DNA from: a virus
DNA length: 64,000 nucleotides
Virus record (IMG/VR): IMGVR_UViG_3300009008_000003
Strand: one strand, 5' to 3'
Shown in pieces: positions 7,466 through 55,669 of this stretch. The translations under genes were made by a program, and so were the position numbers. The notes beneath the pieces are model-generated. The model was not told where the DNA came from, ran no database searches, and saw nothing but the letters and a program-made list of their open reading frames with translations. Each line of letters begins with the position of its first letter. The stretch's first letter is position 1.

Positions 7466-7654
7466 CTATTTTATTAATCCTTCTAATTCTGTTATAGTTA
7501 CTTTCCTTTCCTCTCCGTTATACATATTTAATTCAACATATTCTTCTAGTTCTTCTTCCGGCTCTTCCGGGTCGTACGATATGCCAATTGCATTTATGTA
7601 TGCGGTTTCCCCAGTTTTAAGCTCTATTTTAGACGACACTTTAATCTTCATCAA
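7466..7654 (-). CDS. Small acidic hypothetical protein
   Basis: 62 aa, tightly packed between the primase and the MBL gene. Confidence 0.6.
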   Translation of the reverse strand: MMKIKVSSKIELKTGETAYINAIGISYDPEEPEEELEEYVELNMYNGEERKVTITELEGLIK

Positions 7655-10319: not shown

Positions 10320-10328
10320 TGGTCCTCC

Positions 10329-10721: not shown

Positions 10722-10722
10722 A

Positions 10723-11106: not shown

Positions 11107-11540
11107 CTATTTGCTCTCCTATCTTTGATAGTTAAGCCATTTAGATGATCAACCTCATGCTGTAAGACAAGGGCTTCAAGTTCTTTGGCATTCCTTTGGC
11201 CTCTGATGTCATCAACTATTTTGATTCTTTTGTATCTTTTTGTGTTATATCTTCTGTCTAAGGACAAACATCCTTCGTTTTCAACGACGTATTGGTTTGC
11301 TTTCCTAAGTATTACAGGATTTACTAAAGGATAGTTAATACCACCTGGAAGTCTTATGATGGCTACCTTAAAGGGTAAGCCCACCTGAGGAGCTGCTAAT
11401 CCGTATCCTTTATCTTTTAGTTCCTCTTTTTCCCAATGTTCTTCCAGTAGTGCTATGATTTCTTTTGCCTTTTCTTCGCTGACTTCTTGTATATCTGTCG
11501 TTAGTAAGCCGTGTGGAAGAACTTTGACTGCTTTCATCAA
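11097..11540 (-). CDS. def: Peptide deformylase
   Basis: All three PDF motifs are present: GYGLAAPQVG, EGCLS, QHEVDHLNG; short C-terminus. Confidence 0.93.
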   Translation of the reverse strand: MMKAVKVLPHGLLTTDIQEVSEEKAKEIIALLEEHWEKEELKDKGYGLAAPQVGLPFKVAIIRLPGGINYPLVNPVILRKANQYVVENEGCLSLDRRYNTKRYKRIKIVDDIRGQRNAKELEALVLQHEVDHLNGLTIKDRRANRWG

Positions 11541-20951: not shown

Positions 20952-21683
20952 ATGCCAACATTACAAGAGCGTAAGCAAGAAGAAATGAAAATGTGGGAAG
21001 CTTGGAAAACTGGGGATAATAAAGCACTTCCAAGTTTATTGACCAGTATGGACCCACTAATACAACAACAAGTATCTAAATACTCCACATCGGGCTTACC
21101 TAGGGTTGCCCTGGAAACGCAGGCTCGTAAATTAGCATACGATAGTTTTCATACTTACGACCCCAGTAAGGCTGGTTTAAATACACATGTTGTAAATAAC
21201 ATGAGACATATGCAACGCTTTGTAATTGAATATCAGAACGTTGGCAAGATTCCAGAGCATCGCGGTATTCTGATAACAAAGTACAATAACACCTACAGGC
21301 TCTTAGAAAATAAATTAGGTAGAGAACCTAGCCTAGCTGAGTTATCGGCCGATCTAGGGTGGTCTTTGGCCGAAACAGAGCGTATGCAGATGGAGCTTCG
21401 TAAGGATTTAACCATTGTACAAGAGTCAGGAGAAGAAGATGACTCTTCCGCGTTCTTTGATAGTAAACTTTACGAGACAGATAAGCTAAAAGATTATATT
21501 AGCTTCGTGTATCACAGCGCGTCTATGGAAGATAAAAAAATAATAGAATACTCTTTTGGTATTGGTGGTAGACAGCCACTTAAGGTAAAAGAGATAGCCA
21601 AAAAGCTTAACAAATCAGAATCATATATCAGAAAACGTAGAGCTATTATTGCCGAACAAATACAAGCTCATAGGAAATTTTAA
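20952..21683 (+). CDS. Phage-encoded sigma70-family factor (FliA/SigF-like size, regions 2-4)
   Basis: Region 2 (LIQQQVSKY..YDPSKAGLNTHV), region 3 LGREPSLAELSADLG, region 4 HTH FGIGGRQPLKVKEIAKKLNKSESYIRK. Confidence 0.85.
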   Translation: MPTLQERKQEEMKMWEAWKTGDNKALPSLLTSMDPLIQQQVSKYSTSGLPRVALETQARKLAYDSFHTYDPSKAGLNTHVVNNMRHMQRFVIEYQNVGKIPEHRGILITKYNNTYRLLENKLGREPSLAELSADLGWSLAETERMQMELRKDLTIVQESGEEDDSSAFFDSKLYETDKLKDYISFVYHSASMEDKKIIEYSFGIGGRQPLKVKEIAKKLNKSESYIRKRRAIIAEQIQAHRKF

Positions 21684-33232: not shown

Positions 33233-33615
33233 TGCCTATTGCCGCAGCTGATAGACAGCGACCTGTTTATATTTATGTTATAATACCATTTGCGGAACTA
33301 ACACGCGAAATGGTAACTTATTGTAGAATGGATATGGGTAACGTACGACGTACAGTATCTGGTCCTGATCTGGTTCTATTAAAATATGTTATACCACATA
33401 ATATGTTTAGGCCTTATACTAAGTATACACATAGAGAAATATTAGAAATTTTAGATGCCCCAGAATGGGCCGGTACCGATACGCCGGAAGATATTATGGA
33501 CCCAGAAACCGTTTGGGAATTACTGCAACGTTATAATATTACAGATTATAACACATTATCTGGGGTCATAGACCAAAACTTTGATTTGCCCATTGCCACG
33601 TTGGGGAGACCCTAA
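33232..33615 (+). CDS. Small phage protein
   Basis: YVII...VRRTVSG..VLLKY...[15 protein letters not shown], a pattern I associate with small proteins near fibre genes. Confidence 0.55.
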
Positions 33616-35321: not shown

Positions 35322-35834
35322 ATGAAAAATTTAATAAAAACACTAGCTTGGCATGAAACTAAAAAATGGGCAAAACGTCCTGTTTCTGCTATTGATAAAA
35401 TAGTAGTTCACCAGACTGCCGGAGCTGGAACAATAGAACAGATAAATGATTACCACGTAGGAACTACGAATAATCATATATCGCCAACTGGGTGCCCGCA
35501 TATATGTTATCACTTTGTATTGGATAAGGATGGCAAAATTTGCCAAACAAATAGAATATCTGATTTAGTATGGCATGCTAAGGGCAGCAATTATCATAGT
35601 ATAGGTATCATGGTGTTGGGCGATTTTAAAGGTCCAGACACGCATCTTGGCAATGATTATGTTACTGAAGAACAGTTAAAGGGCTTAGGTGTTTTACTGA
35701 CTATACTTTGTGAAAAGTATGATATAGATAAAAATAATATAAAAGGGCATAACGAGGTTTCTGAAAATAAGCCTGACTGTCCTGGAATTGACATACAAGA
35801 ATACATAAATACTCATTGGAGAAATGATGAATAA
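35322..35834 (+). CDS. N-acetylmuramoyl-L-alanine amidase (Amidase_2, endolysin)
   Basis: IVVHQTA, YHFVLDKDG, WHAKGSNYHSIGI, IKGHNEV..CPG. Confidence 0.92.
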   Translation: MKNLIKTLAWHETKKWAKRPVSAIDKIVVHQTAGAGTIEQINDYHVGTTNNHISPTGCPHICYHFVLDKDGKICQTNRISDLVWHAKGSNYHSIGIMVLGDFKGPDTHLGNDYVTEEQLKGLGVLLTILCEKYDIDKNNIKGHNEVSENKPDCPGIDIQEYINTHWRNDE

Positions 35835-37255: not shown

Positions 37256-37700
37256 TTACGAACCAGAGACAATCGATCATCTGTTCCCTGAACTGGACCA
37301 AACAGACAAAGAAAAACTTAATGCTCTTAAAGTTATTAAGAACGTTGACTCTTTCTTTGACGACATGCATATTTTTGAAAAATGCGTGCTAGCCGTAAAT
37401 GATATAATTCCAGATTTTGGGTTTGTGGAAGGATGCCAACCTGAACATATTTGGTATACAGTATCTTTGGCATCAAAGTTACGACCTAAAAAAAGCTATT
37501 CCTGGGAAGTGCAAAAGTACTGTCAATATTTATTTAATGAAAACGGTGTTTATATTTATCCGCCACAATTTACTAAGCTAGATAATAATGTATTTAATAC
37601 TATAATTGCCAAACTGCGCACCGTAATGTCAGGCCATCTAAATATACAGCGTGACAAATACTTAGCTATTCAGTTATATATAGAACGAAAGAATCAATAA
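37239..37700 (+). CDS. Hypothetical head-module protein
   Basis: Overlap-coupled; directly before the portal. Confidence 0.6.
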   Translation: MLKTDNYEPETIDHLFPELDQTDKEKLNALKVIKNVDSFFDDMHIFEKCVLAVNDIIPDFGFVEGCQPEHIWYTVSLASKLRPKKSYSWEVQKYCQYLFNENGVYIYPPQFTKLDNNVFNTIIAKLRTVMSGHLNIQRDKYLAIQLYIERKNQ

Positions 37701-39574
37701 TGCCTACAGTTTCTCAATTAACAGGAACGTCTGGTAGTGTAACTACTACACAAAGACAAAAATATCCTAACCCGTTTTTTGATCTGTCGAAGGATTATAT
37801 TCCGTCTACAATTAAAAAACTGTTTAAGTACTGTAGAAGCTTTTTTTATAAGAACGAGTTTATAAATTCGGTTATCTATAAACTTGCTGAATATCCTATT
37901 ACTGATTTTATCTACGAAAAGATAGAAAAGCAAGAAACCAAAGATCGTTATCGTGAGTTATTTGGGCATCATTTAAAATTAAAATCCTTGCTCATTGAAA
38001 TTGGTCTTGATTACATGACCTTCGGTAACTGTTTTGTTTCTGCTAATATGGATTTTAAGAGATATCTTGGGTGTCACGGATGTGGAGAATGGTTTCCATT
38101 TAGAGAAGTAAAAAAAATAAAATTAAAACAATGGAAATTCCACGGAACATGCCACAAGTGCAATAAAGAGGGATATTTTAAAGTAGATGATAAGGTAGAT
38201 AAACACCCTAATAATCTTAATTTTATTAGATGGGCTCCTGAAAATATAGATGTACTATATGATCCGTTTACAGGAAAATCTAGATACTTTTATAATATAA
38301 CTAAAAGAACCCAAGGCTTAATTCAAAAAAATGAGCGATATACACTTGAGCATACCCCAATGCTGTTCATGAAAGCTCTAAAAGATAAAAAGAAAATTGA
38401 GCTAAATAAAGATAATCTATACCACTTTAAACGCCACACCCTGGCAGAAGAAGATATGGGTTGGGGTAAACCCATGTTATTGCCAGCGCTATCTTTAATT
38501 TGGTACATGCAAACACTTCGTAGAGGAAACGAAGCCATTGCAGTAGAACACATTATTCCTATGCGAGCAATTTACCCAGCGGCGCAAGGAACAATGGATC
38601 CATATTCAGGAATGAATTTAGGAAAGTGGCGCAATAAAATTGAAGCTCAAATACTTAATTGGAGAAAAGACCCAAACCATGTTGGTATCTTCCCTATACC
38701 TATAGGCTATCAATCGCTTGGTGGGGACGCTAGAGCTCTTATGGTGACTCCTGAGCTTAAGTTCCTAGAAGAGAATATTATATCTTCACTAGGCGTACCT
38801 GTTGAATTTGTTAAAGGTGGGGCTAGCTGGACTGGATCATCGATTTCATTAAGGATCGTAGAGAATCATTTCTTATCGTATAGAGAGCAACTTTTAGATT
38901 TTATAAACTATTTTGTAGTGCCAACTGTTAAAAAGTTTCTTGATTATCCAGATGTTGCTATTAAATTCAAACGCTTCAGAATGTCTGACGACAGCGAAAG
39001 CAAGCGTATTATGTTAGAACTTGCGCAACTGAACAAGATTAGCGATAGTAAATTACTAGATGAATTTGGATATGATGTTACAGAAGATCTAGCTCAGCGT
39101 GAATTAGAAATTGTACATAAAAAAGATCTAATGGGTAAAACTACTGAAGCCGAAGCAGAAGTACAACAAAGTGTACAGATATTAACAGCACGTTCTCAGG
39201 CTAGAGCGGAGTGGGCATTTAATGACGAGAAACTTAAAATAGATGAAGAAATGTTCCAGGAAGAGCTAACTAAAGAAGGTTTACCAGAAGAAGCTGAGCC
39301 TTCAAAGCAAATTCATATGTTAGCTCTCAAAATTTTCTCCTTACCAGAAGCGCAACAAATTAAAGTATTGCAAGAGCTGTTAACGCAGAAGCCAATAACC
39401 TTTAGTTTAGTGCGTAAAAGAATGGGTGCTATACAAGAGTTCATGATGGCTTCTATGCCACAAACTGTGGCAGCTGAGCAAGAAGCCGCCGCGCAAGATG
39501 TTAAACGTGAACAGATACAGGCTAAAAAAGTTAAACCGGAAAAACATACAGGCCAAAAAAGAGGTACTCCGTAA
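37700..39574 (+). CDS. Portal protein with zinc-ribbon insertion
   Basis: EIGLDYMTFGNCFVS, WAPENIDV, LYHFK..GWGKP, helical C-terminal crown; insertion CHGC..CHKC. Confidence 0.75.
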   Translation: MPTVSQLTGTSGSVTTTQRQKYPNPFFDLSKDYIPSTIKKLFKYCRSFFYKNEFINSVIYKLAEYPITDFIYEKIEKQETKDRYRELFGHHLKLKSLLIEIGLDYMTFGNCFVSANMDFKRYLGCHGCGEWFPFREVKKIKLKQWKFHGTCHKCNKEGYFKVDDKVDKHPNNLNFIRWAPENIDVLYDPFTGKSRYFYNITKRTQGLIQKNERYTLEHTPMLFMKALKDKKKIELNKDNLYHFKRHTLAEEDMGWGKPMLLPALSLIWYMQTLRRGNEAIAVEHIIPMRAIYPAAQGTMDPYSGMNLGKWRNKIEAQILNWRKDPNHVGIFPIPIGYQSLGGDARALMVTPELKFLEENIISSLGVPVEFVKGGASWTGSSISLRIVENHFLSYREQLLDFINYFVVPTVKKFLDYPDVAIKFKRFRMSDDSESKRIMLELAQLNKISDSKLLDEFGYDVTEDLAQRELEIVHKKDLMGKTTEAEAEVQQSVQILTARSQARAEWAFNDEKLKIDEEMFQEELTKEGLPEEAEPSKQIHMLALKIFSLPEAQQIKVLQELLTQKPITFSLVRKRMGAIQEFMMASMPQTVAAEQEAAAQDVKREQIQAKKVKPEKHTGQKRGTP

Positions 39575-39735
39575 TGGAAAAGTATGGTACTTATAGAGTC
39601 TTTAGGCATAAAGAAACTGGGGAAATTAAAAGATACCCAGAAGCAGAAATGCGAGAAAGGGGTATAGAAAAAACAGCCGAGCTTTCTGAAGGTTGGGAAG
39701 AGTTAGAAGAGGAACCAGAAGATGTACAGAAATAA
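39574..39735 (+). CDS. 53-aa acidic protein below the ORF-track cutoff
   Basis: TAATG overlap with the portal stop; MEKYGTYRVFRHKETGEIKRYPEAEMRERGIEKTAELSEGWEELEEEPEDVQK*. Confidence 0.7.
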   Translation: MEKYGTYRVFRHKETGEIKRYPEAEMRERGIEKTAELSEGWEELEEEPEDVQK

Positions 39736-40759
39736 ACTTTTAATAAGTTTGCTCCTTATTTTCTTTATATCATGTTCTGCTTTTTCTCAAATAACATTCG
39801 AAGATCACATTCCACTAGCGCCCCCTTTACTTGAGACAAGCTGGCATCAGAAAGCGCCTTATAATCAGGCTTGTCCAGCAGACTCTAACGGTTATAGTGG
39901 TCATGTGCCTACGGGTTGCGTACCACTGGCAATAGCGCAGGTAATGAACTATTATAAACTGCCGTTGATGGGTTATGGTACAGCCACTACTAACACCGTA
40001 TACGGCGAACTAACTGCTGAAATAGGGCGTACTCCTATAAGATGGAACGACACAAAGGGTATAGCAACTTTACTCTACCATGTAGGTATAAGTTATGGGG
40101 CTAACTACGGGCACGAGGGAATGGCCGGACATCCCAATCCACGTGTTACTTCGACTAACATAGGATCCGTGCCTACGAATTGTTACACATACTGGAATTA
40201 CCAGTATAATGTTAAGAACATTAACGAGGGGGCATATGATGATAGCACATGGCACGCTATGCTGCAAGAAGAACTCCTTAAAAAGAGGCCAGTTGTATAT
40301 GGTGGCGGTGGTCACTCCTTTATTATAGATGGGTACGATCGCTCCTGGGATGGCACTCCTAAGTACCATGTAGTATGGGGAGCGGGGGGGTCGTGGGATG
40401 GTTGGTATACTCTAGACGACTTGACTCCCGGCCCGTTTGATTTTACCAATAATCAACATATGTTGCAAAACTTTTACCCCAGAGAAAAGTGTCTGCTATA
40501 CCCGCATGATAATATTATAAATGTACCAGATAAAAATACCTTATTTATATGGAGAGATATAGGCGACCGATATACCTTACTGGTAAATGATTACCCAAGT
40601 TTTAGGATGCCTATTCTTAGAGTACAAGATTTAACTACACCCGTATACTTTACCAATTATCTAGAGCCAAATACCATTTACTATTGGAAAGTATATATTT
40701 ACGGCGGGGATAATGAAGGCTGGTCAAGAATGCATACCTTTAAAACGGTGGAGCAATGA
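39722..40759 (+). CDS. Secreted C10-family (streptopain-like) cysteine protease without propeptide
   Basis: Signal peptide; PLLETSWHQ..PYN..CP; TGCVPLAIAQVMNYY (Cys); GGHSFIIDGY (His); YHVVWG..GSWDGWY; C-terminal FN3-like segment. Confidence 0.88.
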   Translation: MYRNKLLISLLLIFFISCSAFSQITFEDHIPLAPPLLETSWHQKAPYNQACPADSNGYSGHVPTGCVPLAIAQVMNYYKLPLMGYGTATTNTVYGELTAEIGRTPIRWNDTKGIATLLYHVGISYGANYGHEGMAGHPNPRVTSTNIGSVPTNCYTYWNYQYNVKNINEGAYDDSTWHAMLQEELLKKRPVVYGGGGHSFIIDGYDRSWDGTPKYHVVWGAGGSWDGWYTLDDLTPGPFDFTNNQHMLQNFYPREKCLLYPHDNIINVPDKNTLFIWRDIGDRYTLLVNDYPSFRMPILRVQDLTTPVYFTNYLEPNTIYYWKVYIYGGDNEGWSRMHTFKTVEQ

Positions 40760-44440: not shown

Positions 44441-46027
44441 TTAGTTAAGGGTTTGGAATATGTTTAGCATTACCTCTTTTTCAGTGCCCTTGTCGTTAAT
44501 ATCTGATAGTTTTGTTACCATCCTAGATATTTGATTAAGCGTCTGTGAGGAATAATACCCAGAGTCCATTAGTATTGCTAATACTTGAACTTTTTTCTCT
44601 TTGCACCATTTATTGAATTTGTCTACAAAATCATTGGTCAGCGGGGCTTCGCCGTCTGTGATAAATACAATATCAGCTTTTGAGAATTCTGGCTTGTTAT
44701 CTATATATTCCATTGCTAACTTTAAAGGTGGTTCGAAATTTGTGCCACCATTTATAAACTTTTCTGCCATTGCAATTGTTTTCTCGATATCTGGCGGCGA
44801 GTTTTTTGGAAAATCATGCACCGGCAACTGGCGCGGGCTGTATTCGCCTGAGTAGTGGATCACAAGGAAGTCTCTGTTTTCTCGTTGAGCCGTATCCAAC
44901 AATGCTAATGCTACTGCTTTTGCCCAGTATTCTAACTGCCCACCCATGCTGCCAGATTCATCAATGCAGCATATGATTGGGCCTTTTGATTTTTTAGCAT
45001 GTCCGGATAAGGCATATTGTAATAATTTTCCATCTACTAAATCTGCCTTAAACATTAGTCTACGCAACTTATTACTGCTAGAGAGATTACTTAACTCGGA
45101 AGGAACTATTCTAGATAAATCGCTGCCGCGTTCTACGGAATATACTTCTTCGCTTCCTCGTTTGATTTTTTCTTTTCCTATCTTAGTCGCGATCATTTTT
45201 AAACGACCGGCTATTTTAGCTATTTCTGTTAACTTGTAGCTATTCTTAATTTTGTTCAGCATATTCATTTGCTGTCTATAATTTAAGGACTGGCCACCAT
45301 CTCCGCCACCCAATCCCCACTGGGACAACGTATCCTTGGTATCAGCGGTTATACGAACGGTTTCGTTCATGATTTTATTCATAGCTGGGGTAAGTTTTTT
45401 CTTATCCCAATTTTTTAGGTCTTTGTAGGCATCTTCTAGCTGTTTTCTGGCTTCGTCCATTTTTATCTTGGCGTTAGCTTTTGCAGTGTCGTTGCCTTCT
45501 TCTCCTTCTTCTGATTCATCTTCAGCTTCCGCTGCAGCCTGTGCTTCTTCTTCCGCTTCTTTCATGTCTTTGGCGGCTTGCTCCGCAGCCTCGTTAAACG
45601 CTTTCTGTTGCTCTTTTAGCCCTTTTGCTAGTTCGAGAGCTTTTTCACCAAAAGTTTCTGTTGCCACTGCCGTAGCCAAAGGGTCCATTCTTGTTATTGC
45701 TCTCAGCTCTTTGTATTTAGCTGACTCAGTTATGTGTTCCATAACCATTCTGTTAAGCAAGTACTCATGATCCATTTCGTACTCTGGTCTCAGCTTTGCG
45801 TGGTATCTATACAATGAAGAATATACGTCTTGATATAGCGGTGTGAAGTTTTCATATTCTTGCTGCCCGCGTACTTGTAATTCGTTTATTTTAGGAGCAT
45901 CCGCCTTTAATTGCTCGAAGTTAGATATATCGAATGCGTCGTTGTAGATAGTATGCTTATAATTAAAAAGGGGATCGGTAAATGATCCCCTTTTCTTCGA
46001 TAATATACTATTGTCTACTTTTTTCAT
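44441..46027 (-). CDS. vWA (MIDAS) domain protein, ViaA/YehP-like MoxR partner
   Basis: GPIICCIDESGSMGG (DxSxS), GGTNFEPPL, ADIVFITDGEA; N-terminal coiled coil. Confidence 0.9.
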   Translation of the reverse strand: MKKVDNSILSKKRGSFTDPLFNYKHTIYNDAFDISNFEQLKADAPKINELQVRGQQEYENFTPLYQDVYSSLYRYHAKLRPEYEMDHEYLLNRMVMEHITESAKYKELRAITRMDPLATAVATETFGEKALELAKGLKEQQKAFNEAAEQAAKDMKEAEEEAQAAAEAEDESEEGEEGNDTAKANAKIKMDEARKQLEDAYKDLKNWDKKKLTPAMNKIMNETVRITADTKDTLSQWGLGGGDGGQSLNYRQQMNMLNKIKNSYKLTEIAKIAGRLKMIATKIGKEKIKRGSEEVYSVERGSDLSRIVPSELSNLSSSNKLRRLMFKADLVDGKLLQYALSGHAKKSKGPIICCIDESGSMGGQLEYWAKAVALALLDTAQRENRDFLVIHYSGEYSPRQLPVHDFPKNSPPDIEKTIAMAEKFINGGTNFEPPLKLAMEYIDNKPEFSKADIVFITDGEAPLTNDFVDKFNKWCKEKKVQVLAILMDSGYYSSQTLNQISRMVTKLSDINDKGTEKEVMLNIFQTLN

Positions 46028-47202
46028 AAATTAAGATCTCCGCTTTCGGTAGTAGTGGATACAGACATTCCTGTAACTTCCTTAACTACTTCCTGATTCA
46101 TGCGTTGCAGTTTCTTGCTATATATTTGCAATGAATCTAGATTTTTTCCGCGTTCCCTAAGCTGCTTGAAAGATCCTTCTATCTTTTTGATTGCTGCGCC
46201 TATCTTATCCATAGTGTCGAGACCAAGAGTACTCTTATCCGACTGCTTCTTGCTTGACTCTTTGAATTTTTTATAAACGTCTACAGCCTTTTCGTAAGTG
46301 TCTATGATTCTAGCTTTTTCAGGAAGAGTGACTGTAAGAACGGCTATATGCACGATTCTTTCATCTTCAGGTTTGGACCATAGTACATTCTTTAAGATTT
46401 CGAAATCTTCTTCTGATACGTGATTTCTTCCTCGCAGAAAGGCTTCTGTTTTCATTATATGAACGGCCTTCACCCAGGTTCTGTCGGTTACCACGATTGT
46501 CTTTTGTTCTAGACTTCTTTTGATGTCTATCATAAAGTTAACTATGTTTTCATCGTAAGTAACTTCCTGAATTTGCTTCATACCTTTTTGTATCTCTGCT
46601 TGAGTAATAGTATGAGGAATTTTTAACGAGTAATCGTTTCCTAAAGCTTTTTTAAATTCTGCGGAATCGTTAATATATCCAATTCTGTATTTAAATTGGA
46701 ATCTATCGTACATGGCATCCAGCCCATCGTCCTCTGCCGGTATCTCGTTTGACGCACCAATCATTAACTTTAGTGGTATGTTTGGGTTAGCATCCCTGCC
46801 ATTAGGAAATAGGCGTTCATTCATAATAGTTAGCAGCGAGTTTAGAATACCGCTGTTAGCCTTAAATACTTCATCTATGAACGCGAAATCTGATTCTGGT
46901 AATTTACCCAAAGTAACGCGTCTATAGTCATCTTCCTCCAAGCCCTTGGCTGAAATCGGCCCAAATAGTTCGTCTGGCGTAGAAAATTTTGTTACCAGCC
47001 ACTCAAAATAAGTACCACCAAATGCTTTTGCCCAGCCACGAATCAACGCGCTTTTTGCTGTCCCTGGAGGACCTAACAATAATATATTGCTGTTGGAATA
47101 CAATGCTAAAGGCATTCCATGAATTGCATCTTCTCTTTCTACGTATAAGGAGTTAAGAAATTGTTCGTTTTCTTTTATTTTTTGTTGTACTGTGATTGCC
47201 AT
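46024..47202 (-). CDS. MoxR-family AAA+ ATPase, RavA-like
   Basis: LLLGPPGTAKS, FSTPDELFGP, FIDEVFKANSGILNSLLTIMNER, GASNEIP, AMYDRF. Confidence 0.92.
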   Translation of the reverse strand: MAITVQQKIKENEQFLNSLYVEREDAIHGMPLALYSNSNILLLGPPGTAKSALIRGWAKAFGGTYFEWLVTKFSTPDELFGPISAKGLEEDDYRRVTLGKLPESDFAFIDEVFKANSGILNSLLTIMNERLFPNGRDANPNIPLKLMIGASNEIPAEDDGLDAMYDRFQFKYRIGYINDSAEFKKALGNDYSLKIPHTITQAEIQKGMKQIQEVTYDENIVNFMIDIKRSLEQKTIVVTDRTWVKAVHIMKTEAFLRGRNHVSEEDFEILKNVLWSKPEDERIVHIAVLTVTLPEKARIIDTYEKAVDVYKKFKESSKKQSDKSTLGLDTMDKIGAAIKKIEGSFKQLRERGKNLDSLQIYSKKLQRMNQEVVKEVTGMSVSTTTESGDLNL

Positions 47203-48276: not shown

Positions 48277-48305
48277 TTGACCAATTATATATTTGTATTT
48301 ATAAT
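48277..48305 (+). promoter_or_regulatory. Near-consensus sigma70-type promoter for the RNA polymerase gene
   Basis: TTGACC, N17, TATAAT. Confidence 0.8.
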
Positions 48306-48362: not shown

Positions 48363-51300
48363 ATGGCGAAGAGAGTTGACTCCTTAAACATCAACGAACA
48401 AGATCTTTTGATGCAGTCGTCGGTAGTTGATGCCCTTTACAAGGAATTTCCTATAAAGGGTAAAAAGAATAGTATACGTATTAAAAATATTATTGCAGAT
48501 GAGACCAAAGCCCCGATCAATGATTTGCCAGCCCAGAAAGAAATTAAGCTAGATGGTAAGTCTTGGGTAATGCCTGTATACGCCGATTTTGATTTAATAG
48601 ATAATGAAACCGGTAAAGTTATTTCTAGAGCTAAGAAAATGAAAATCACCTCTATACCGAGGATGACAAATAGATTTTCAGTTATCATCGAGGGGAATGA
48701 GTACCAGACTCTCAATCAGTTTCGTCTTCGTTCTGGTGTATACACGCGTGAAAAGTCTAATGGCCAGTTTGAAAGTCAGTTTAACCTGGAAAAGGGCTTC
48801 AACTTCAAAATGATGCTGGACCCGAAAAAAGAGGTATTCTTCCTTCAGGCTGGTAATCAAAACTATCCTATATATGCTATTTTACATGCTCTCGGCATGC
48901 CAGATGAACCTATGCGCCGAGCATGGGGTAAAGAGATATTCGAGGCTAATGCTAGGGCTGGAATAAAAGAGCTACATGGATCTATTATAAAATTAGTAGA
49001 TACTTTATTGCATCACAAAACAAATGACTACGCAGAAGCTCTAAGGCTCTTTAAAAAGTATTTAGAAGATACCTCAGTATCCTCAGAAACAACAGAGCTT
49101 ACCCTGGGCCAAGGTTTTAATAAGGTAAATAAAGACTTACTACTAGCAACTTCTTCAAAATTGTTACGCGTAATGCGTAGAGAAGAAAAAGAAGATGAAA
49201 GAGATTCCTTGGTATTCAAAGAGCTGTTCACACCACAAGACCAGCTTAAAGCCTTTCTAGATGCGCGTACTACGAAGATTACAAACAAGATTAAATGGCG
49301 TTTAGATAATAAAGAAACCATCAGAGACATTATTCCTACTAATACTTACGGTGATCCTATTAAGGAGTTCTTCTCAGTTGGTGAACTTAGTAGTCCCCCG
49401 CCGCAGACTAATCCAGCAGCTATTTTAGGCGAATGGAATAAAACAACCGTTATGGGAACTGGTGGAATACAATCCAGGCATGCTGTAACTATGAATGTAC
49501 GAGATGTACATCCTTCTACAGTTGGATTCTTAGATCCGATTAATACACCAGAAACTGGTAAAATTGGTGTTACCTTACCGCTAGCTATAGGTGTTTCTAA
49601 AACAGAAAAAGGACTTGTAACTAAAGTTATAACACCGGCAGGCCGTATAAAAGAATTTACACCAAAAGAAATGTGGGATCGTAAGATAGGGTTTCCTGAC
49701 CAATATAAAGTGGTAGATGGAAAAGTTAAGCCTGTCGGGGCTCTAGTAAAAGGTAACTGGAAGGGCAGATCATTACTTATTGCAGGTAAGGAAATAGATG
49801 GATATATACATAATCCAACCTTTATGTTCTCTTTCCAAAGTAACTTGATTCCATTTTTGGGCACGGTATCTGGTAACCGCGCTATGGTTGCCAGTAAACA
49901 GATTGGGCAGGCTGTTGCAGTATCTAATCCTGATAAGCCGCATGTACGTGTGCTGGGGCCCAACAAGAGACAAACTTTTGGCAAAGCTATCAGTGACACT
50001 GTTAATCCTAAAGTTCCTAATGAGTTAGAAGAGGGTACTGTATCCAAAGTCACAAAAGATTACATATTTATAAAAGACCAAGATAACAAAACACACAAGA
50101 TTGGATTATTCAATGATTTCCCGTTAAACCAAGAAGCTTTCATAAATAGCAAACCCGTAGTAGCTCCTGGTAGTAAAGTATACCCAGGGGATAAACTTGC
50201 AGAGAATAACTTCCAGGATAAGGGCGAACTTGCTTTAGGTGTTAATGCTAAGATAGCATATATGCCTTGGAAGGGCTATAATTTCGAAGATTCGGTTGTC
50301 GTAACTGAGTCATTTGCCAATAGAATGACCTCTGAGAAAATTTTAAAATTCTCTTATACAGCGCCCAAAGAAGGCATGATAGATAAAGCTAAATTATTAG
50401 CTTATTATCCGGACAGCATGACACCAGAAAACTATGCTAAATTAGATGATGAAGGTATTATTAAAAAAGGATCAGAAGTAGATCCTAATGATGTGTTGAT
50501 TGCTGGCCTCGCTCCTAAAGAATACACAGACGAAGAGAAGATTCTAAAAACTATGAATAAGAGTCTATCTGTTCCTTACGCACGAAGTACTTTGGAGTAT
50601 GACGGCCATAACCGAGGTAAAGTATTATATGTGCGTAAACTTACGCGTAGGCGTTACAATGTGCATGTAAAAGTAATTGCCCCTATGGAAATAGGCGATA
50701 AAATTGCTGGTCGTTATGGCAACAAGATGATTGTATCCAAAATCATTAAAGATGATGAGGCTCCTCATACCAAAGATGGCAAAGCAATAGATGTTATAGC
50801 CTCCCCGTTTGGTGTACCGGGTCGTATGAATATTGGCCAGTTATTAGAAACGGCCGCTGGTAAGCTAGCAGAAAAAACAGGCAAAGATTATGAAGTAGCC
50901 AACTTTGATGGAACAGACCATTTAGCTAAATTAAAGAAAGAATTCAAGAAAAATGGGTTAGAGTTTGACGAAGAGCTTACTGATGGGAAAGATGGTAAAT
51001 CTTTTACTAACAAAGTGTTCGTAGGAAACCAGCATATACTTAAACTCATGCATGTTGTAGAACATAAGTTAAAACATAGATCTTATGGCTCTTACAGTAT
51101 GGACGAACAGCCCACTAGAGGAGATGATGGTGGTCAAGCTTTTGATCAGCTTACCACTTACGTAGCCATGGCGCATGGGGCGAAAGCAAACCTGTATGAT
51201 TCTACAGCTATTAAAGGTCAAAAGAACGACGAAATATGGAGAAACATTCAACTAGGATTACCTATACCTCCACCCAATAGAAACTTTGCCTGGGATAAGA

Positions 51301-54300
51301 TGGTTAACTATCTTAAAGCCTCTGGCGTTAATGTCGAGAAAAAGGGAGATTATATACAAGCATCTCCTTTAACAGACAAAGCCGTTACTGAGCTGACCGG
51401 CACGAAATCGGAAATCAAAGATCCTGGGCACATGTTGATTGGTAAGAACCTTGCCAGTATTAAAGGCGGCCTGTTTGATCAAAACATCACAGGCGGAATG
51501 CAAGGAAAGAAGTGGGGATATATTAAACTTGAAGAAAAGATCCCCTCTCCACTCATGCAAAAATCTATTACTTCTATTCTTGGTATCACGCATAGCAAGT
51601 ATATGAAAATAATAAACGAACAAGAAGAGTTAGATGGTAAGACTGGCTTTGCGGCTATAGAAGCTGCCTTAGGCAAGGTTGATATTAACGCAGACTTACG
51701 CAAGACCAAGAAATCTCTACAGACCACAGCTCCACAAAATGTAGATAAATTAAATAAAAAAATAAGATATCTGGAGGCATTGAAAAAGTTTGAGCTGAAG
51801 CCAACTGATTTAATGATATCTAAAGTTCCTGTTTTACCTCCGGTATTTAGACCTGTCTATCCACTTCCTAGTGGGGACTTAATGGTTAATCCTATCAATT
51901 GGTCATACAGAAATTTAGGTTTAGTAAACAACAGTCTTAAACAATACAAGACGATGGGCAGTGTTGCTTATAAGGAATTGGGTGGTAATACTCGCAAAAG
52001 TTTATATGAGGCAGTTAGTGAAGTACAGGGCGTAACAGACCCGGTAGGGTTTGGACAAGAGAAAAGACTTGGAGCACTTGCTCAACTGTCTGGTAAAAAA
52101 GGTACGTCTCCCAAGTATGGCTTTATCCAGAGCAAGCTCTGGAGAAAACGCCAAGACTTAACCGGTAGATCCACAATTACTCTTGAACCTAGCTTAGGTT
52201 TAGATCAGATAGGCATTCCTGAGGTGATGGGGTGGGACATTTATAAACCTTTTGTAATGAAAGAACTTAAAGACCAAGGTTTTCAACCTATACAAGCTAT
52301 GGAGGAAATAGAAAAGAAAACGGATAGAGCTAAAGAAGCTCTAATAGCTGTTATGAAAAAACGTCCAGTAATGGTTAACCGCGCACCTTCTCTTCACAAG
52401 TTTGGTTTGCAGGCATTTAATCCAATTAACGTAGAAGGCAATGCTATCAAGCTTAATCCTTTGGTGACAAAAGGGTTTAATGCAGACTTTGACGGCGACA
52501 CAATGTCTGTACACGTACCGGTTACAGATAAGGCCGTAGAAGAAGCATATGGCATGATGCCCTCTCGTAATGTATTTATGCCGGGCATGCACGGAGCTAA
52601 AACAATGCCTATACAAGGCTTTGGCCAAGATTACCAATTAGGTATATGGTTACTCACCCGAACTGAAAAGAAAAGCACTAAAGAATACGAGTCAATTGCT
52701 GCGGCAACTAAAGCTAAAGTTCCCTTGACTACAGAGATAACAATTAAGGGCAAGGGTAGAACTACCCTTGGAAGAGAGATATTGGTTAAATCCGTACCTA
52801 AAAAGTTCCATAAATTTGTACGCTCTAACGAAATGAATGGAAAGAATGTAAACGAATTAATGACCAGAATAGCTCTTGAATCTGATAAAGACTACGGCCA
52901 AGTTGCAGACTCCCTGAAGAGTCTGGGAGCAGACTCCGCACATCAACACGGGTTTAGTATTTCCCTTAATGATCTAGATATAGATAGATCTTTTAGGGAC
53001 AAAGCAGTAGCGGATACTTGGAGAAAAGTAGGTCCCAAACCTGCCGATACGAAAGTAGTAAATGCTTTCATGGGCATAGACAACAAGATTGCAGTTGGGC
53101 AGGCTAAGGCTGTTAAAGACAAAGAGAAGCTATATAGCAGAGAAAACAACTTACGTATTATGCAGGAGTCTGGCGCTGGAGGTAAAAAAGTAGCTAACTC
53201 TGCTCAGCAAATCTTATCAATGCCGGGTGTTCTTTTAGATGTGCACAATAATCCTATCCCAGTACCTAATGTTAAATCCTGGACAGAGGGACAAGATGTG
53301 GCAGGTTATTGGAACTCTATGTATGGGGCACGTAAAGGGGCTGTAGATAGAGCTATTAATACGCAAGATACTGGGTTTCTCAATAAGTCCTTATTAGCAG
53401 TGACTAGAAATCTTGTTATCACGGAAGAAGATTGTGAAACAACTGACGGCATCGAAATAGCAGTCAATGATAAAAATGCAGTAGATAGATTTTTAGCTGA
53501 AAAAATAGTAGGGGTTGGAAGGAAAGACGAATTAGTTACCACCGAGCTATTACGAAAAGCTAAAGCTAAAAAATTAAAAACTATCAAAGTACGCTCACCC
53601 CTGACCTGTGAGACCGCAAAAGGAGTTTGTATTCAGTGCTATGGTTTAATGGCTAATAATAAGCCTCCTAAAGTCGGAGATAATGTTGGCATCATAGATG
53701 GCCAAACTATGACAGAGCGTAGTACACAATTACAGATGCAGACTTTCCATAGCGGCGGAACGGCTAAAGGTACATCAATGTTGGTTGCGGGGTTCCCTCG
53801 TATTATCCAATTAGTAAAGGTGCCCGCTGTGTTAGGCGGTAAGGCTACCTTGTCTGAAGTTTCTGGCGAGGTTAGTAAAGTAACAGAAAACCCATTAGGG
53901 GGTTATGATGTAACTATAGGGGATATAGCACATAGAATCCCTGCTGGTATGGGGTTAAAAGTAAAAGAAGGAAGCAAAGTAAGCAAGGGAGATTTGTTAT
54001 CAGAAGGCATCATTAAGCCCCAGGAGTTAAGTAAGCTAAAGTCACATCTAGATGCTGAGAAGTATATCGTGGATGAACTGGATGATGTGTTTGATGGCCA
54101 ATTCCATAAGCGTACCTATGAAACAGTAGTTCGTGCTATGGGTTCGCAGGCACGCATCACAGAAGCTCCGGAAGATAGTGATTTAATTAGAGGGGATGTT
54201 GCCGATATATGGCATCTAAAGAAATTAAATACAAAACGAAAAGCTGAGGGTAAAGAATTAATACAGTATGAGCCATACTTTAAATCCATTGACATGTTAC

Positions 54301-54467
54301 CTCATGACCGGGCAGACTGGTTAAGTAGATTAAGCGTAAACAGGTTGCGCGGAACAGTACAAGAAGCCGCAGCTCGTGGACTGGTATCAGATATTCACGG
54401 AGTTGATCCTATACCTGCATACATGTACGGAACTGAGTTTGGTAAAAAAGAAGATGGTAGATACTAA
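48363..54467 (+). CDS. rpoBC: Single-chain multisubunit-type RNA polymerase (beta-beta' fusion)
   Basis: Beta motifs: NRAMVASKQIGQA, YMPWKGYNFEDS, GDKIAGRYGNK, PFGVPGRMNIGQLLE, GGQAF. Beta' motifs: VPVLPPVFRP, KRQDLTGRS, NRAPSLHK, NADFDGD (52479-52499), GARKG, VRSPLTC..GVCIQCYG, QLQMQTFHSGG. Confidence 0.96.
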   Translation: MAKRVDSLNINEQDLLMQSSVVDALYKEFPIKGKKNSIRIKNIIADETKAPINDLPAQKEIKLDGKSWVMPVYADFDLIDNETGKVISRAKKMKITSIPRMTNRFSVIIEGNEYQTLNQFRLRSGVYTREKSNGQFESQFNLEKGFNFKMMLDPKKEVFFLQAGNQNYPIYAILHALGMPDEPMRRAWGKEIFEANARAGIKELHGSIIKLVDTLLHHKTNDYAEALRLFKKYLEDTSVSSETTELTLGQGFNKVNKDLLLATSSKLLRVMRREEKEDERDSLVFKELFTPQDQLKAFLDARTTKITNKIKWRLDNKETIRDIIPTNTYGDPIKEFFSVGELSSPPPQTNPAAILGEWNKTTVMGTGGIQSRHAVTMNVRDVHPSTVGFLDPINTPETGKIGVTLPLAIGVSKTEKGLVTKVITPAGRIKEFTPKEMWDRKIGFPDQYKVVDGKVKPVGALVKGNWKGRSLLIAGKEIDGYIHNPTFMFSFQSNLIPFLGTVSGNRAMVASKQIGQAVAVSNPDKPHVRVLGPNKRQTFGKAISDTVNPKVPNELEEGTVSKVTKDYIFIKDQDNKTHKIGLFNDFPLNQEAFINSKPVVAPGSKVYPGDKLAENNFQDKGELALGVNAKIAYMPWKGYNFEDSVVVTESFANRMTSEKILKFSYTAPKEGMIDKAKLLAYYPDSMTPENYAKLDDEGIIKKGSEVDPNDVLIAGLAPKEYTDEEKILKTMNKSLSVPYARSTLEYDGHNRGKVLYVRKLTRRRYNVHVKVIAPMEIGDKIAGRYGNKMIVSKIIKDDEAPHTKDGKAIDVIASPFGVPGRMNIGQLLETAAGKLAEKTGKDYEVANFDGTDHLAKLKKEFKKNGLEFDEELTDGKDGKSFTNKVFVGNQHILKLMHVVEHKLKHRSYGSYSMDEQPTRGDDGGQAFDQLTTYVAMAHGAKANLYDSTAIKGQKNDEIWRNIQLGLPIPPPNRNFAWDKMVNYLKASGVNVEKKGDYIQASPLTDKAVTELTGTKSEIKDPGHMLIGKNLASIKGGLFDQNITGGMQGKKWGYIKLEEKIPSPLMQKSITSILGITHSKYMKIINEQEELDGKTGFAAIEAALGKVDINADLRKTKKSLQTTAPQNVDKLNKKIRYLEALKKFELKPTDLMISKVPVLPPVFRPVYPLPSGDLMVNPINWSYRNLGLVNNSLKQYKTMGSVAYKELGGNTRKSLYEAVSEVQGVTDPVGFGQEKRLGALAQLSGKKGTSPKYGFIQSKLWRKRQDLTGRSTITLEPSLGLDQIGIPEVMGWDIYKPFVMKELKDQGFQPIQAMEEIEKKTDRAKEALIAVMKKRPVMVNRAPSLHKFGLQAFNPINVEGNAIKLNPLVTKGFNADFDGDTMSVHVPVTDKAVEEAYGMMPSRNVFMPGMHGAKTMPIQGFGQDYQLGIWLLTRTEKKSTKEYESIAAATKAKVPLTTEITIKGKGRTTLGREILVKSVPKKFHKFVRSNEMNGKNVNELMTRIALESDKDYGQVADSLKSLGADSAHQHGFSISLNDLDIDRSFRDKAVADTWRKVGPKPADTKVVNAFMGIDNKIAVGQAKAVKDKEKLYSRENNLRIMQESGAGGKKVANSAQQILSMPGVLLDVHNNPIPVPNVKSWTEGQDVAGYWNSMYGARKGAVDRAINTQDTGFLNKSLLAVTRNLVITEEDCETTDGIEIAVNDKNAVDRFLAEKIVGVGRKDELVTTELLRKAKAKKLKTIKVRSPLTCETAKGVCIQCYGLMANNKPPKVGDNVGIIDGQTMTERSTQLQMQTFHSGGTAKGTSMLVAGFPRIIQLVKVPAVLGGKATLSEVSGEVSKVTENPLGGYDVTIGDIAHRIPAGMGLKVKEGSKVSKGDLLSEGIIKPQELSKLKSHLDAEKYIVDELDDVFDGQFHKRTYETVVRAMGSQARITEAPEDSDLIRGDVADIWHLKKLNTKRKAEGKELIQYEPYFKSIDMLPHDRADWLSRLSVNRLRGTVQEAAARGLVSDIHGVDPIPAYMYGTEFGKKEDGRY

Positions 54468-55669
54468 TGCTACACGGTCCATGTCAACATATACTGGTTG
54501 CATATGATTTTAGAAAACCTTTTAACCAAGACTTCGGTAAATTGCCTGGGTTAATAGGAGTAGCACGTCGTGGCGGTACCATACTATTTGAAAATATAAA
54601 GTACAATGTATTTTGGCAACGATATAAAGATGGAAAGTTGCCTCCATATCTAAAAATATTTACCTTTGATGTGGATAGATATAAACTAGTAAGAGCTCGC
54701 ACGTTAAAGAAAGTAGAATATAAAAAAGAGCTATACGATTTCAAACTGCGTAATAAAGTTATAAGAGGTCATAGTATTTTGGCCTTTGATAAAAATCTTG
54801 GTATAGTAACTAATATATCGGGAGAAGACGCGCTTGGAGCCTGGGTGCCTTTGCCTTTAGAATTAGAGGTCCCAGGCCCAGATCTACCGGGTGGGTTTGA
54901 AGAAGCTTGGGAAATTGGCAACAATATAGCATTAAATAGTGTCAAAAAACGTTCCGTTAATCCTAGCATAACTACCCTAAGAATGAATCTGACTGATGAT
55001 TTTTTAGCGCATAGTTATGACTATAGACTAGGGCTGTTCTCCGGGCTATTTAACAAGTGGGGTAACTTGCCTCTTGGGGGAGACGGAGCAGGTTGGGAAG
55101 GAAAACATGATTCCTTATCTCGCCCAAAATTTAAATGTGTTCAACAAAGGCGAACATTTTGGTTTAACTTCAGACAACTAGTAGCTAGTCTTGGACAAGA
55201 AACTAATGATAAAACTGATTATGGCTACTATAAATATTACGTTACCAGGTTACGCCCCACTTCTTTCTATCCTTTAATAGATAAATTAAAAATAGACAAC
55301 AGTAAACGTCAAAGAGAAGTAGATAGATTCAAAGACGTATACCATTCAAACCAGGAAGGCGGACGTGCGGTTCCGATGGATAGAGCTATCTCTGATACAC
55401 TTTCTTACTATAAAGCTATACTAACTGGAAGCGAAGACGAGCTAACTAGAAAATACGCTACCCGCTTATTAGAGAATGATCTGCATATAGCAGACAAAAA
55501 TTTAACATATATCGACAATTGGCGTAAATATATGGTAAATAATAAAAAAATATATTGGGTAAAAATTGATGGGGTGCAGGCGGTTGAGCCAGAGCAAACC
55601 ACCACCAATTTTTTATTAGACATGTCAATTCCTTTCCTTTCGGCCTACTTGTTGCCTCAGAGTGAATAA
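54467..55669 (+). CDS. 400-aa unknown protein translationally coupled to the RNAP gene
   Basis: TAATG overlap; basic and aromatic-rich; no motif recognised. Confidence 0.75.
   Translation: MLHGPCQHILVAYDFRKPFNQDFGKLPGLIGVARRGGTILFENIKYNVFWQRYKDGKLPPYLKIFTFDVDRYKLVRARTLKKVEYKKELYDFKLRNKVIRGHSILAFDKNLGIVTNISGEDALGAWVPLPLELEVPGPDLPGGFEEAWEIGNNIALNSVKKRSVNPSITTLRMNLTDDFLAHSYDYRLGLFSGLFNKWGNLPLGGDGAGWEGKHDSLSRPKFKCVQQRRTFWFNFRQLVASLGQETNDKTDYGYYKYYVTRLRPTSFYPLIDKLKIDNSKRQREVDRFKDVYHSNQEGGRAVPMDRAISDTLSYYKAILTGSEDELTRKYATRLLENDLHIADKNLTYIDNWRKYMVNNKKIYWVKIDGVQAVEPEQTTTNFLLDMSIPFLSAYLLPQSE

What the first reader, a model, noticed from the sequence alone, without database searches (positions are those of the whole stretch)
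48363..54467. Reduced single-chain beta-beta' RNA polymerase lacking the beta' N-terminal zinc-binding domain
Seen: 2034 aa (about 990 beta + about 1040 beta'; junction near 51345, ..GVNVEKK-GDYIQASP..) versus about 2750 aa for the two E. coli subunits. Between GGLFDQNITG and WGYIKL only about 5 residues remain where bacteria have the four-Cys zinc ribbon. The C-terminal Zn site and NADFDGD are intact. No alpha or omega gene is in the window. Known: beta-beta' fusions exist in Helicobacter and Wolbachia, and a deep-branching clade of Caudovirales with multisubunit RNAP (mReC) has been described from metagenomes. Inference: this phage probably belongs to or resembles that group. Loss of the ZBD may alter termination and sigma contacts, which would fit promoters placed next to terminators.
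Basis: partly seen in the sequence, partly recalled or inferred. Interest (0 to 1): 0.7.

Follow-up and report, generated by a model that had tools for sequence, protein, structure and literature searches.

The report
Single-chain phage RNA polymerase, zinc-finger-less
A large marine phage encodes both catalytic subunits of a bacterial-type RNA polymerase as one 2034-residue protein that has lost a zinc finger kept by every bacterial enzyme compared; it belongs to a very large, almost unstudied phage family that also carries its own sigma factor and no recognisable alpha or omega subunit.

Summary
Window 48363-54467 (+) is one 2034-aa ORF. Residues 1-995 are beta and 996-2034 are beta', joined without a linker. 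NADFDGD and the C-terminal Cys4 zinc site are intact. The N-terminal beta' zinc-binding domain (ZBD) is replaced by five residues, and the protein has only four cysteines.

This is not the published mReC group. A bona fide mReC contig and 11 look-alikes have two genes, in the order beta' then beta, and keep the ZBD. They form a separate clade.

The window enzyme belongs to a third, monophyletic phage lineage:
- at least 577 IMG/VR contigs;
- more than 150 clusters at 50% identity.

The lineage is not nested in the sampled bacteria (27-31% identity). ZBD loss is universal in it (33/33 in the tree set, 83/83 in a second set).

Its only cultured members, Salmonella phage Arash and Vibrio phages D69, D148 and D181, have beta' split secondarily. 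In Arash the enzyme and a sigma factor were detected in purified virions.

No alpha or omega homologue was found in six relatives' genomes. A sigma-like gene is conserved. The portal gene lies upstream in 63 of 84 loci.

Best reading: an alpha/omega-independent phage polymerase that uses the phage sigma and is possibly packaged in the virion. The scan flagged like enzymes on two other genomes.

The parts
48363..54467 (+). Single ORF of 2034 aa (P0001): fused beta-beta' RNA polymerase
48363..51347 (+). Beta moiety, residues 1-995 (Rpb2_3, Rpb2_6). The flap-tip-like segment EEKILK is kept. The rifampicin-pocket equivalent at residues ~336-368 has S/P/P/E/K/T at E. coli positions 513/514/516/526/529/531
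51324..51368 (+). Beta/beta' junction (G988...P1002). The fusion has no linker, and the first ~18 residues of bacterial beta' are absent
   Evidence: modelled with high confidence (10-residue block pLDDT means 85-95)
51348..54464 (+). Beta' moiety, residues 996-2034 (Rpb1 domains 1, 2, 3 and 5)
51465..51521 (+). Site of the missing zinc-binding domain: GGLFDQNITGG-MQGKK-WGY. About 32 residues, including all four Cys, are absent
   Evidence: block pLDDT 95
52479..52499 (+). NADFDGD catalytic Mg2+ motif (residues 1373-1379)
   Evidence: the Asp triad is invariant in 83/83
53433..53639 (+). C-terminal zinc site: C1691, C1749, C1756, C1759, the only cysteines in the protein
48277..48305 (+). Sigma-70-like promoter match TTGACC-17-TATAAT (11/12) in the intergenic region upstream of the gene
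   Evidence: a consensus match only, function not shown
20952..21683 (+). Sigma-70-family gene (243 aa; regions 3 and 4, with a weak full-length match to RpoS) among tail and baseplate genes; the inferred initiation factor of this polymerase
   Evidence: conserved in 5/5 relatives' genomes
37700..39574 (+). Portal-like gene, the conserved upstream neighbour of the polymerase gene across the family. Here a minus-strand block (41.5-48.3 kb) separates the two

Best explanation
The ORF encodes the catalytic core of the phage's own bacterial-type RNA polymerase as one chain.

Assembly. Beta is joined through its C-terminus to beta' residue ~19. In bacterial enzymes these two ends lie side by side, so the covalent link can replace the assembly role of the alpha dimer. 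The enzyme therefore most likely works without alpha and omega.

Initiation. It most likely uses the phage's own sigma-70-family protein (window 20952-21683).

ZBD loss. The zinc-binding domain that lines the RNA-exit channel in bacterial enzymes was lost once, at the base of this phage family. Docking of exit-channel regulators, and hairpin-dependent pausing and termination, should therefore differ from the host enzyme.

Timing. The enzyme is probably made with the virion genes and is at least partly packaged. It would then enter the cell with the DNA and transcribe the first phage genes. I put this last step at about 50%.

Shown here:
- the architecture, the intact catalytic and C-terminal zinc sites, and the ZBD loss;
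- family membership and monophyly;
- absence of recognisable alpha and omega in relatives;
- a conserved sigma gene;
- portal synteny.

Inferred: activity, alpha independence, pairing with the phage sigma, packaging, and any effect on termination.
For: Architecture and intact active site.

Long-term selection as one chain:
- at least 300 clusters at 90% identity, nearly all about 2000-2050 aa, or longer with inteins;
- the top 150 representatives at 50% identity all belong to the family;
- at least 577 IMG/VR contigs.

ZBD: absent in 83/83 and 33/33 family members. Present in 20/20 bacteria, including two natural CPR fusions, and in 12/12 mReC-type enzymes.

Monophyly apart from Bacteria and from mReC: FastTree and IQ-TREE, support 99-100.

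Alpha and omega: PF01193 and PF01192 have no match at E<=1 in D69, Arash and five IMG/VR relatives, four of them 93-100% complete; PF01000 was searched only in D69, Arash and one 37%-complete contig and gave no match. Controls matched in 14/14 genomes.

Sigma: the homologue is present in 5/5 relatives.

Virion link:
- in Arash, sucrose-gradient-purified particles gave gp206 (the beta-beta'N fusion) as the protein with most spectra, plus gp216 (beta'C) and sigma gp10 (PMC10585845);
- a portal homologue lies upstream on the same strand in 63/84 family loci;
- the sigma gene sits among tail and baseplate genes.

Precedent for alpha/omega-less phage polymerases: PMC7598289.
Against: - No activity, subunit composition or packaging has been measured for this phage.
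- Only 64 kb of the ~189.6-kb genome was readable, so alpha and omega were excluded in relatives, not in this genome. Pfam-level searches would miss a non-homologous assembly factor.
- The Arash proteome listed 116 'virion' proteins, including ribonucleotide reductases and a primase, so carry-over of abundant infection proteins is plausible.
- A near-consensus sigma-70-type promoter precedes the gene. That fits early transcription by the host enzyme and a non-virion role at least as well.
- The phage sigma could instead redirect the host polymerase.
Confidence: 0.6

Rival explanations
1. The enzyme is the same alpha-independent polymerase but is not packaged. The host polymerase transcribes its gene and the sigma gene from sigma-70-type promoters soon after infection. 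The phage holoenzyme then takes over, reading phage-specific promoters such as the GGYATAAG motif. This resembles a T7-style or phiKZ nvRNAP-style takeover.
For: The best promoter-like match in the region, TTGACC-17-TATAAT (11/12), lies directly upstream of the gene. The Arash 'virion' list is very inclusive, at 116 proteins. The GGYATAAG motif occurs 11 times in the window, nine of them on the minus strand, which carries replication-type genes such as ribonucleotide reductase, primase and helicase.
Against: The polymerase was the protein with most spectra in purified Arash particles. The gene keeps its place beside the portal gene in 63/84 loci. The motif count is only modestly above chance: 11 against 5.1 expected, and 4 of 100 shuffles reach 11.
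Confidence: 0.3
2. The fused protein still needs host alpha (and omega) to assemble or to respond to regulators, as the naturally fused Helicobacter enzyme does.
For: The enzyme is far more bacterial-like than the phiKZ or AR9 enzymes: E about 1e-106 to solved bacterial beta' chains, and PHROG families of phiKZ-like subunits score much lower. Natural bacterial fusions keep alpha (from established knowledge, not tested here).
Against: The family infects many different hosts, with isolates on Salmonella and Vibrio and contigs from marine and other metagenomes. The enzyme is only about 28-31% identical to any bacterial one, which makes a conserved fit to many different host alphas unlikely. phiKZ and AR9 enzymes show that alpha can be dispensed with.
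Confidence: 0.12
3. It is a member, or a derived fused branch, of the published mReC clade.
For: Both are tailed-phage lineages with recognisably cellular-type beta and beta'. Only one of the two mReC enzyme size classes could be fetched and tested (the class with beta ~1000 aa and beta' ~900 aa). The class with beta ~1360 aa and beta' ~1005 aa, and the 1400 + 1391 aa pairs in the paper's table, could not be retrieved.
Against: Trees separate the two groups with support 100, and Bacteria branch between them when the tree is rooted on mReC. mReC-type loci have the order beta' then beta and keep the ZBD. BLAST scores to P0001 are 175-200 bits (beta') and 95-125 bits (beta), against 330-385 and 220-310 bits for bacteria. 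PF07068 capsids were not found in relatives.
Confidence: 0.07

Closest known systems
Salmonella phage Arash gp206 + gp216 ('Arashvirus', PMC10585845) and Vibrio phages D69, D148, D181
   Same: They share the same beta-beta' fusion junction and the same clean ZBD deletion. They nest inside the fused family in both trees. The portal gene lies upstream and the sigma homologue is present. No alpha or omega was found.
   Different: Only about 28% identical. Their beta' is split near residue 1461-1466 into beta-beta'N (~1525 aa) and beta'C (~606 aa). The gap holds ten genes in Arash, about 640 bp in D69, and a homing endonuclease in D148 and D181. The window enzyme is unsplit. The Arash paper annotates the proteins simply as beta and beta' and does not mention a fusion in its text.
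mReC: multisubunit-RNAP-encoding Caudovirales (Weinheimer & Aylward 2020, PMC7481178)
   Same: Uncultured large tailed phages with cellular-like beta and beta' that branch outside Bacteria.
   Different: mReC enzymes are two separate genes, often two sets per genome. In the fetched mReC-type loci the order is beta' then beta and the Cys4 ZBD is kept. They form a separate clade. Their capsid marker is PF07068, which was not found in this family's relatives.
Natural bacterial beta-beta' fusions (Helicobacter and Wolbachia models PRK09603 and PRK14844; CPR bacteria L113 and L124)
   Same: Same order and the same kind of head-to-tail fusion.
   Different: P0001 scores far below the curated cut-offs of the two models: 522 against 5372 bits and 479 against 4632 bits. 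The bacterial fusions sampled keep the ZBD and sit inside Bacteria. They are also longer, at 2253-2281 aa.
phiKZ/AR9-type jumbo-phage virion and non-virion multisubunit polymerases (PMC7598289)
   Same: Phage-encoded enzymes of the two-barrel type that lack alpha and omega. One set is packaged in the virion.
   Different: Those enzymes are split into four or five polypeptides, are very divergent, and come with no sigma factor. This one is a single chain, clearly bacterial-like, and comes with a sigma gene. PHROG matches to phiKZ-like subunits are weak, E 1e-8 to 1e-26, against 2e-111 for its own family.
Phage N4 and crAss-like virion RNA polymerases (functional analogy only)
   Same: Very large single-chain polymerases packaged in the capsid and injected to transcribe early genes (abstracts; N4 from general knowledge).
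   Different: N4 vRNAP is a T7-like single-subunit enzyme. The crAss enzyme is too divergent to align with cellular beta and beta'. Packaging of the present enzyme has not been shown.

Membership tests
Bacterial-type RNA polymerase catalytic core (beta + beta') | Beta domains, including the Rpb2_6 barrel region | tested here: met
   Pfam PF00562 E 8e-65 and PF04565 E 1.8e-8; NCBIfam rpoB models E 1e-104 to 1e-113, though below their curated cut-offs
Bacterial-type RNA polymerase catalytic core (beta + beta') | Beta' NADFDGD Mg2+ site and Rpb1 domains 2, 3 and 5 | tested here: met
   (Asp triad in 83/83); fold match to bacterial beta'
Bacterial-type RNA polymerase catalytic core (beta + beta') | C-terminal beta' Cys4 zinc site | tested here: met
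   C1691, C1749, C1756, C1759; conserved in 81/83
Bacterial-type RNA polymerase catalytic core (beta + beta') | N-terminal beta' zinc-binding domain (E. coli C70, C72, C85, C88) | tested here: not met
   Clean gap; no cysteine outside the C-terminal site
Bacterial-type RNA polymerase catalytic core (beta + beta') | Accompanying alpha dimer and omega | tested here: inconclusive
   No hit in six relatives' genomes, with positive controls, nor among window ORFs of 150 aa or more. The rest of this genome was not readable, and use of host subunits cannot be excluded
mReC (PMC7481178) | Separate beta and beta' genes | tested here: not met
   One ORF here. All mReC entries list two proteins
mReC (PMC7481178) | Falls in the mReC clade of the polymerase tree | tested here: not met
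   Separate clades with support 100, using L249 (a listed mReC contig) and 11 similar loci. The second mReC size class was not available
mReC (PMC7481178) | T4 gp23-type capsid protein (PF07068) | tested here: inconclusive
   Absent from D69, Arash and a 100%-complete relative, while a positive control (RHph_Y65) matched. This phage's own capsid gene lies outside the window
Helicobacter/Wolbachia-type fused RpoBC | Passes the curated model for fused beta/beta' | tested here: not met
   PRK09603: 522 bits against a cut-off of 5372. PRK14844: 479 bits against 4632
phiKZ/AR9-type phage multisubunit polymerases | Beta and beta' split into four or five polypeptides, with no sigma factor | tested here: not met
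   Single chain. A sigma-like gene is present and conserved. Definition from PMC7598289 and PMC7824862
Arash/D69-like fused, ZBD-less phage polymerase family (not yet named in the literature I could search) | Beta-beta' fusion at the same junction, the same ZBD deletion, and one clade | tested here: met

The most novel reading that the evidence does not exclude
This is a third, independent lineage of phage polymerases of the cellular type: a complete minimal holoenzyme made of one 230-kDa beta-beta' chain plus one phage sigma. It needs no alpha or omega. It is packaged in the capsid next to the portal and injected to start infection. Its zinc finger was shed so that host exit-channel factors (Rho, NusA, put-like RNAs) cannot act on it. 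If so, it would be the simplest known sigma-dependent polymerase of the bacterial type.
Probability: 0.3. Interest if true: 0.85.

Novelty: new variant of a known kind. Interest (0 to 1): 0.65.

Why it matters
1. It defines a very large phage family with only four cultured, barely studied members. The family carries a bacterial-type polymerase in its most compact sigma-linked form seen here: one chain, with no recognisable alpha or omega and no ZBD.
2. It offers natural experiments on two old questions. One is whether the alpha platform is needed only for assembly. The other is what the exit-channel zinc finger contributes to pausing, intrinsic termination and factor docking.
3. It corrects the easy assumption that every 'cellular-like' phage polymerase from metagenomes belongs to mReC. 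At least two separate lineages exist besides the phiKZ type.
4. Arash and D69 are culturable, so the virion-packaging and alpha-independence hypotheses can be tested directly.
5. A single-gene, sigma-programmable polymerase would be a useful tool for cell-free and synthetic-biology expression.

Tried and rejected
I could not read the rest of the 189.6-kb genome or the neighbours of the split variant P0133.
- Metagenome scan with P0063, to catch the mReC contig of near-identical length (70,236 against 70,238 bp): nine loci, none of them that contig.
- Single-sequence scan of viral contigs with P0133: nothing.
- The listing of cluster members gave no accessions that link to mReC names.
- The first PF07068 search had no positive control. 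It was repeated with RHph_Y65 as control.
- MAFFT --auto on 84 full-length sequences timed out, so FFT-NS-2 was used instead.
- The downstream 400-aa ORF (54467-55669) was considered as an accessory subunit. I rejected this: it has no family hit and is conserved only in the closest relative.
- The look-up of sequencing runs: no RNA holder is listed, only DNA runs of one marine study.
- Four full-text literature searches, plus one for phage Arash, found no description of a fused, ZBD-less phage beta-beta' family. The library is incomplete, so this is not proof that none exists.
- The reading 'recent capture from a bacterium' is rejected.
Full report
**Observation.** Window 48363-54467 (+) is a single 2034-aa ORF. 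Pfam places beta domains (Rpb2_3, Rpb2_6) at residues 348-920 and beta' domains (Rpb1_1, 2, 3 and 5) at residues 1107-1823. The best solved-structure matches are bacterial beta' chains from Thermus, Clostridia, Bacillus, Pseudomonas, E. coli, Streptomyces and Mycobacterium. They all score alike (290-358 bits), so no phylum stands out.

I aligned the protein with Salmonella beta and beta' (locus L003). The end of beta (...ASGVNVEKKG995) runs straight into D996-YIQASPLTD, which matches beta' from about residue 19. The first ~18 residues of bacterial beta' are missing.

**The missing zinc finger.** Bacterial beta' has FGPVKDYECLCGKY...CEKCGVEVT...RRERMGH at this site. The phage protein has GG-MQGKK-WGY. 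The whole protein contains only four cysteines: 1691, 1749, 1756 and 1759. These are the C-terminal zinc site, so no replacement zinc ribbon exists in cis. The Asp triad of NADFDGD (residues 1373-1379) is intact.

An AlphaFold2 model of residues 921-1470, built on a 34-sequence family alignment, has mean pLDDT 86. Its 10-residue block means are 85-95 across the junction and the shortened loop. The best fold matches are cyanobacterial gamma and E. coli-type beta' chains, E about 1e-30.

**How 'reduced' is it?** Relative to Salmonella, 777 residues are missing. About 414 of them lie in the stretches I recall as the lineage-specific insertions of E. coli (beta SI1, beta SI2, beta' SI3). The smallest bacterial pairs among my loci total 2253-2285 aa. 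The real shrinkage is therefore about 10%. It comprises the ZBD, a stretch after it (beta' 126-150), the N-terminus of beta, parts of the beta lobe, and the beta' C-terminal tail.

**A very large family.**
- A word-indexed search returned at least 300 clusters at 90% identity. Nearly all are 2000-2050 aa, or 2300-3700 aa with intein domains, on contigs of up to 228 kb.
- An exhaustive HMMER search with the beta' half gave 150 top representatives at 50% identity. All are family members (E<=1e-156).
- IMG/VR holds at least 577 contigs.
- The window protein is found on a 189,633-bp contig. Earlier notes of this scan call that contig a complete marine phage genome.
- In the phage isolate collection only four records cover most of the protein, at about 28% identity: Vibrio phages D69, D148 and D181, and Salmonella phage Arash. 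In these, the fusion and the ZBD gap are the same, but beta' is cut near residue 1461-1466 into a second gene.

**ZBD loss defines the family.** The ZBD columns are gaps in 83/83 sequences of one alignment and in 33/33 family rows of the tree alignment. All 20 bacterial rows, including two naturally fused CPR enzymes, carry the domain. So do all 12 mReC-type rows, with the four cysteines or, in one row of each group, three. The fusion therefore did not cause the loss. The loss is a shared derived character of this phage lineage.

**Relation to mReC.**
- The supplementary tables of Weinheimer & Aylward list only two-protein enzymes. Typical sizes are beta ~1000 + beta' ~900 aa, or beta ~1360 + beta' ~1005 aa, and large contigs often carry both sets.
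- Locus L249 (IMG/VR 3300005915, 152,423 bp) matches a listed mReC contig by metagenome id and exact length.
- L249 and 11 similar loci carry a 885-932-aa beta' followed by a 998-1063-aa beta, which is the reverse of the bacterial order. They keep the zinc finger.
- Against P0001 they score 175-200 bits (beta') and 95-125 bits (beta). Bacterial subunits score 330-385 and 220-310 bits.
- Trees of concatenated beta + beta' give three clean groups. The trees were FastTree with 65 rows and 1932 columns, and IQ-TREE LG+G4 with 45 rows and 1892 columns. The groups are Bacteria (support 100), mReC-type (100), and the fused family with the Arash/D69 split forms nested inside it (99-100).
- The mReC capsid marker PF07068 was not found in D69, Arash or a complete relative, while a positive control matched.
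- The enzyme is therefore a separate lineage and not an mReC member. I could not retrieve the second mReC size class, and the trees lack archaeal and eukaryotic outgroups.

**Not a recent capture.** In one genome per prokaryote species, the best 80 loci were one phage-like 204-kb contig binned with a Bacteroidales MAG (41% identity) and 79 bacterial rpoBC loci at 27-33%. P0001 is below the curated cut-off of every NCBIfam polymerase model, including the Helicobacter and Wolbachia fused forms.

**Partners.**
- Six-frame searches for the alpha dimerisation domain (PF01193) and omega (PF01192) found nothing at E<=1. They covered D69, Arash and five IMG/VR relatives, four of them 93-100% complete.
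- The alpha insert domain (PF01000) was searched only in D69, Arash and one 37%-complete contig, also without a match. All 14 control genomes matched in each of these searches.
- None of the 41 window ORFs of 150 aa or more hit these families.
- A 243-aa sigma-70-family protein is encoded at 20952-21683 among tail and baseplate genes. It has homologues in all five relatives' genomes searched, and the closer relatives carry a second weak paralogue. The Arash homologue lies at 11.9-12.3 kb of that genome; I take it to be the annotated 'RpoS' gp10, though I did not check the gene coordinates.
- The ORF just downstream of the polymerase gene is not conserved and is not a candidate subunit.

**Context and timing.**
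- A portal-like gene lies upstream on the same strand in 63 of 84 family loci, including D69 and Arash, where gp204 is annotated as portal. The median gap is 2.6 kb.
- In this window a minus-strand block separates the two genes. It holds a glycosyltransferase, a retron-type reverse transcriptase and a VWA-MoxR pair.
- In Arash, LC-MS of sucrose-gradient-purified particles found gp206 with the most spectra, plus gp216 and sigma gp10. The same list holds 116 proteins, some clearly metabolic.
- The best sigma-70-like promoter match of the region (TTGACC-17-TATAAT) lies directly upstream of the gene.
- These facts fit either an injected early polymerase or an early-expressed takeover enzyme. The first would be an N4-like programme in which host-type promoters drive late genes. 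I favour packaging, but only at about even odds.

**What the ZBD loss may mean (inference).** In E. coli the beta' ZBD sits at the mouth of the RNA-exit channel. It is the docking site of the HK022 put antiterminator RNA, and binding there changes pausing (PMC9378689). From memory, which is a lead and not a test, deleting it alters intrinsic termination and antitermination but not elongation-complex stability (King et al. 2004). It is also one of Rho's contact surfaces. An enzyme without it should read hairpin signals and host factors differently. The rifampicin-pocket positions also differ family-wide (D516 to P or E, H526 to E, S531 to T), which predicts insensitivity to the drug.

**Novelty.** My full-text searches found no paper that describes this fused, ZBD-less phage family. 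The jumbo-phage reviews do not cover it, and the Arash paper annotates plain beta and beta'. The scan's own notes show that first readers flagged similar 2010-aa single-chain enzymes on two other genomes. I class it as a new variant of a known kind, namely a phage-encoded polymerase of the cellular type.

**Limits.**
- Only 64 kb of the genome was readable.
- No RNA data were available.
- Bacterial sampling in the trees is biased towards the best hits.
- Function is entirely inferred.

Noticed in passing
L170 (Rhizobium phage RHph_Y65, NC_070967.1) 8752-12135: This cultured 207-kb T4-like phage (it has a PF07068 capsid) encodes a 1127-aa beta' homologue. A six-frame search found no beta (PF00562) anywhere in its genome, so it appears to be a beta'-only phage.
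   Followed up: partly
L001 10512-11151 (D69); L002 12506-17277 (Arash); H2 and H3 (D181, D148): The Arash/D69 subgroup splits beta' near residue 1461-1466 of P0001. Model coordinates suggest this is about where cyanobacteria split gamma from beta'. The gap holds about 640 bp in D69, a homing endonuclease in D148 and D181, and ten genes in Arash.
   Followed up: partly
proteins P0044-P0067, P0309 and others: Many family members carry one to several inteins or LAGLIDADG endonuclease domains (PF14528, PF14890, PF05204) inside the polymerase gene. This raises it to 2300-3700 aa. The window copy has none.
   Followed up: no
L113 9059-15817 and L124 172-7014: Saccharibacteria and Paceibacterota MAG contigs encode naturally fused beta-beta' proteins (2253 and 2281 aa) that keep the ZBD. 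They are further examples of bacterial fusions beyond Helicobacter and Wolbachia.
   Followed up: partly
window 44441-47202 (-): A VWA-domain protein and a MoxR-type AAA+ ATPase (bpMoxR) form a pair upstream of the polymerase gene. The pair is conserved at that place in 13-14 related loci.
   Followed up: partly
window 39722-40759 (+): A Peptidase_C10 (streptopain-family) protein, E 5e-35, is encoded just after the portal-like gene. It has no homologue in the 84 related loci.
   Followed up: no
window 33615-35261 (+) and 35322-35834 (+): A collagen-triple-helix-repeat protein, probably a fibre, is followed by an N-acetylmuramoyl-L-alanine amidase within the structural operon.
   Followed up: no
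L249 7371-13798 and 11 similar IMG/VR loci (L237-L259): In mReC-type phages the polymerase genes are arranged beta' then beta, the reverse of bacteria. The paper's main text sections that I read do not mention this.
   Followed up: partly
window 7641-10319 (-): An 892-aa protein has an archaeo-eukaryotic primase domain of the 'TOTE conflict system' type (PF22548). It lies among replication genes on the minus strand.
   Followed up: no
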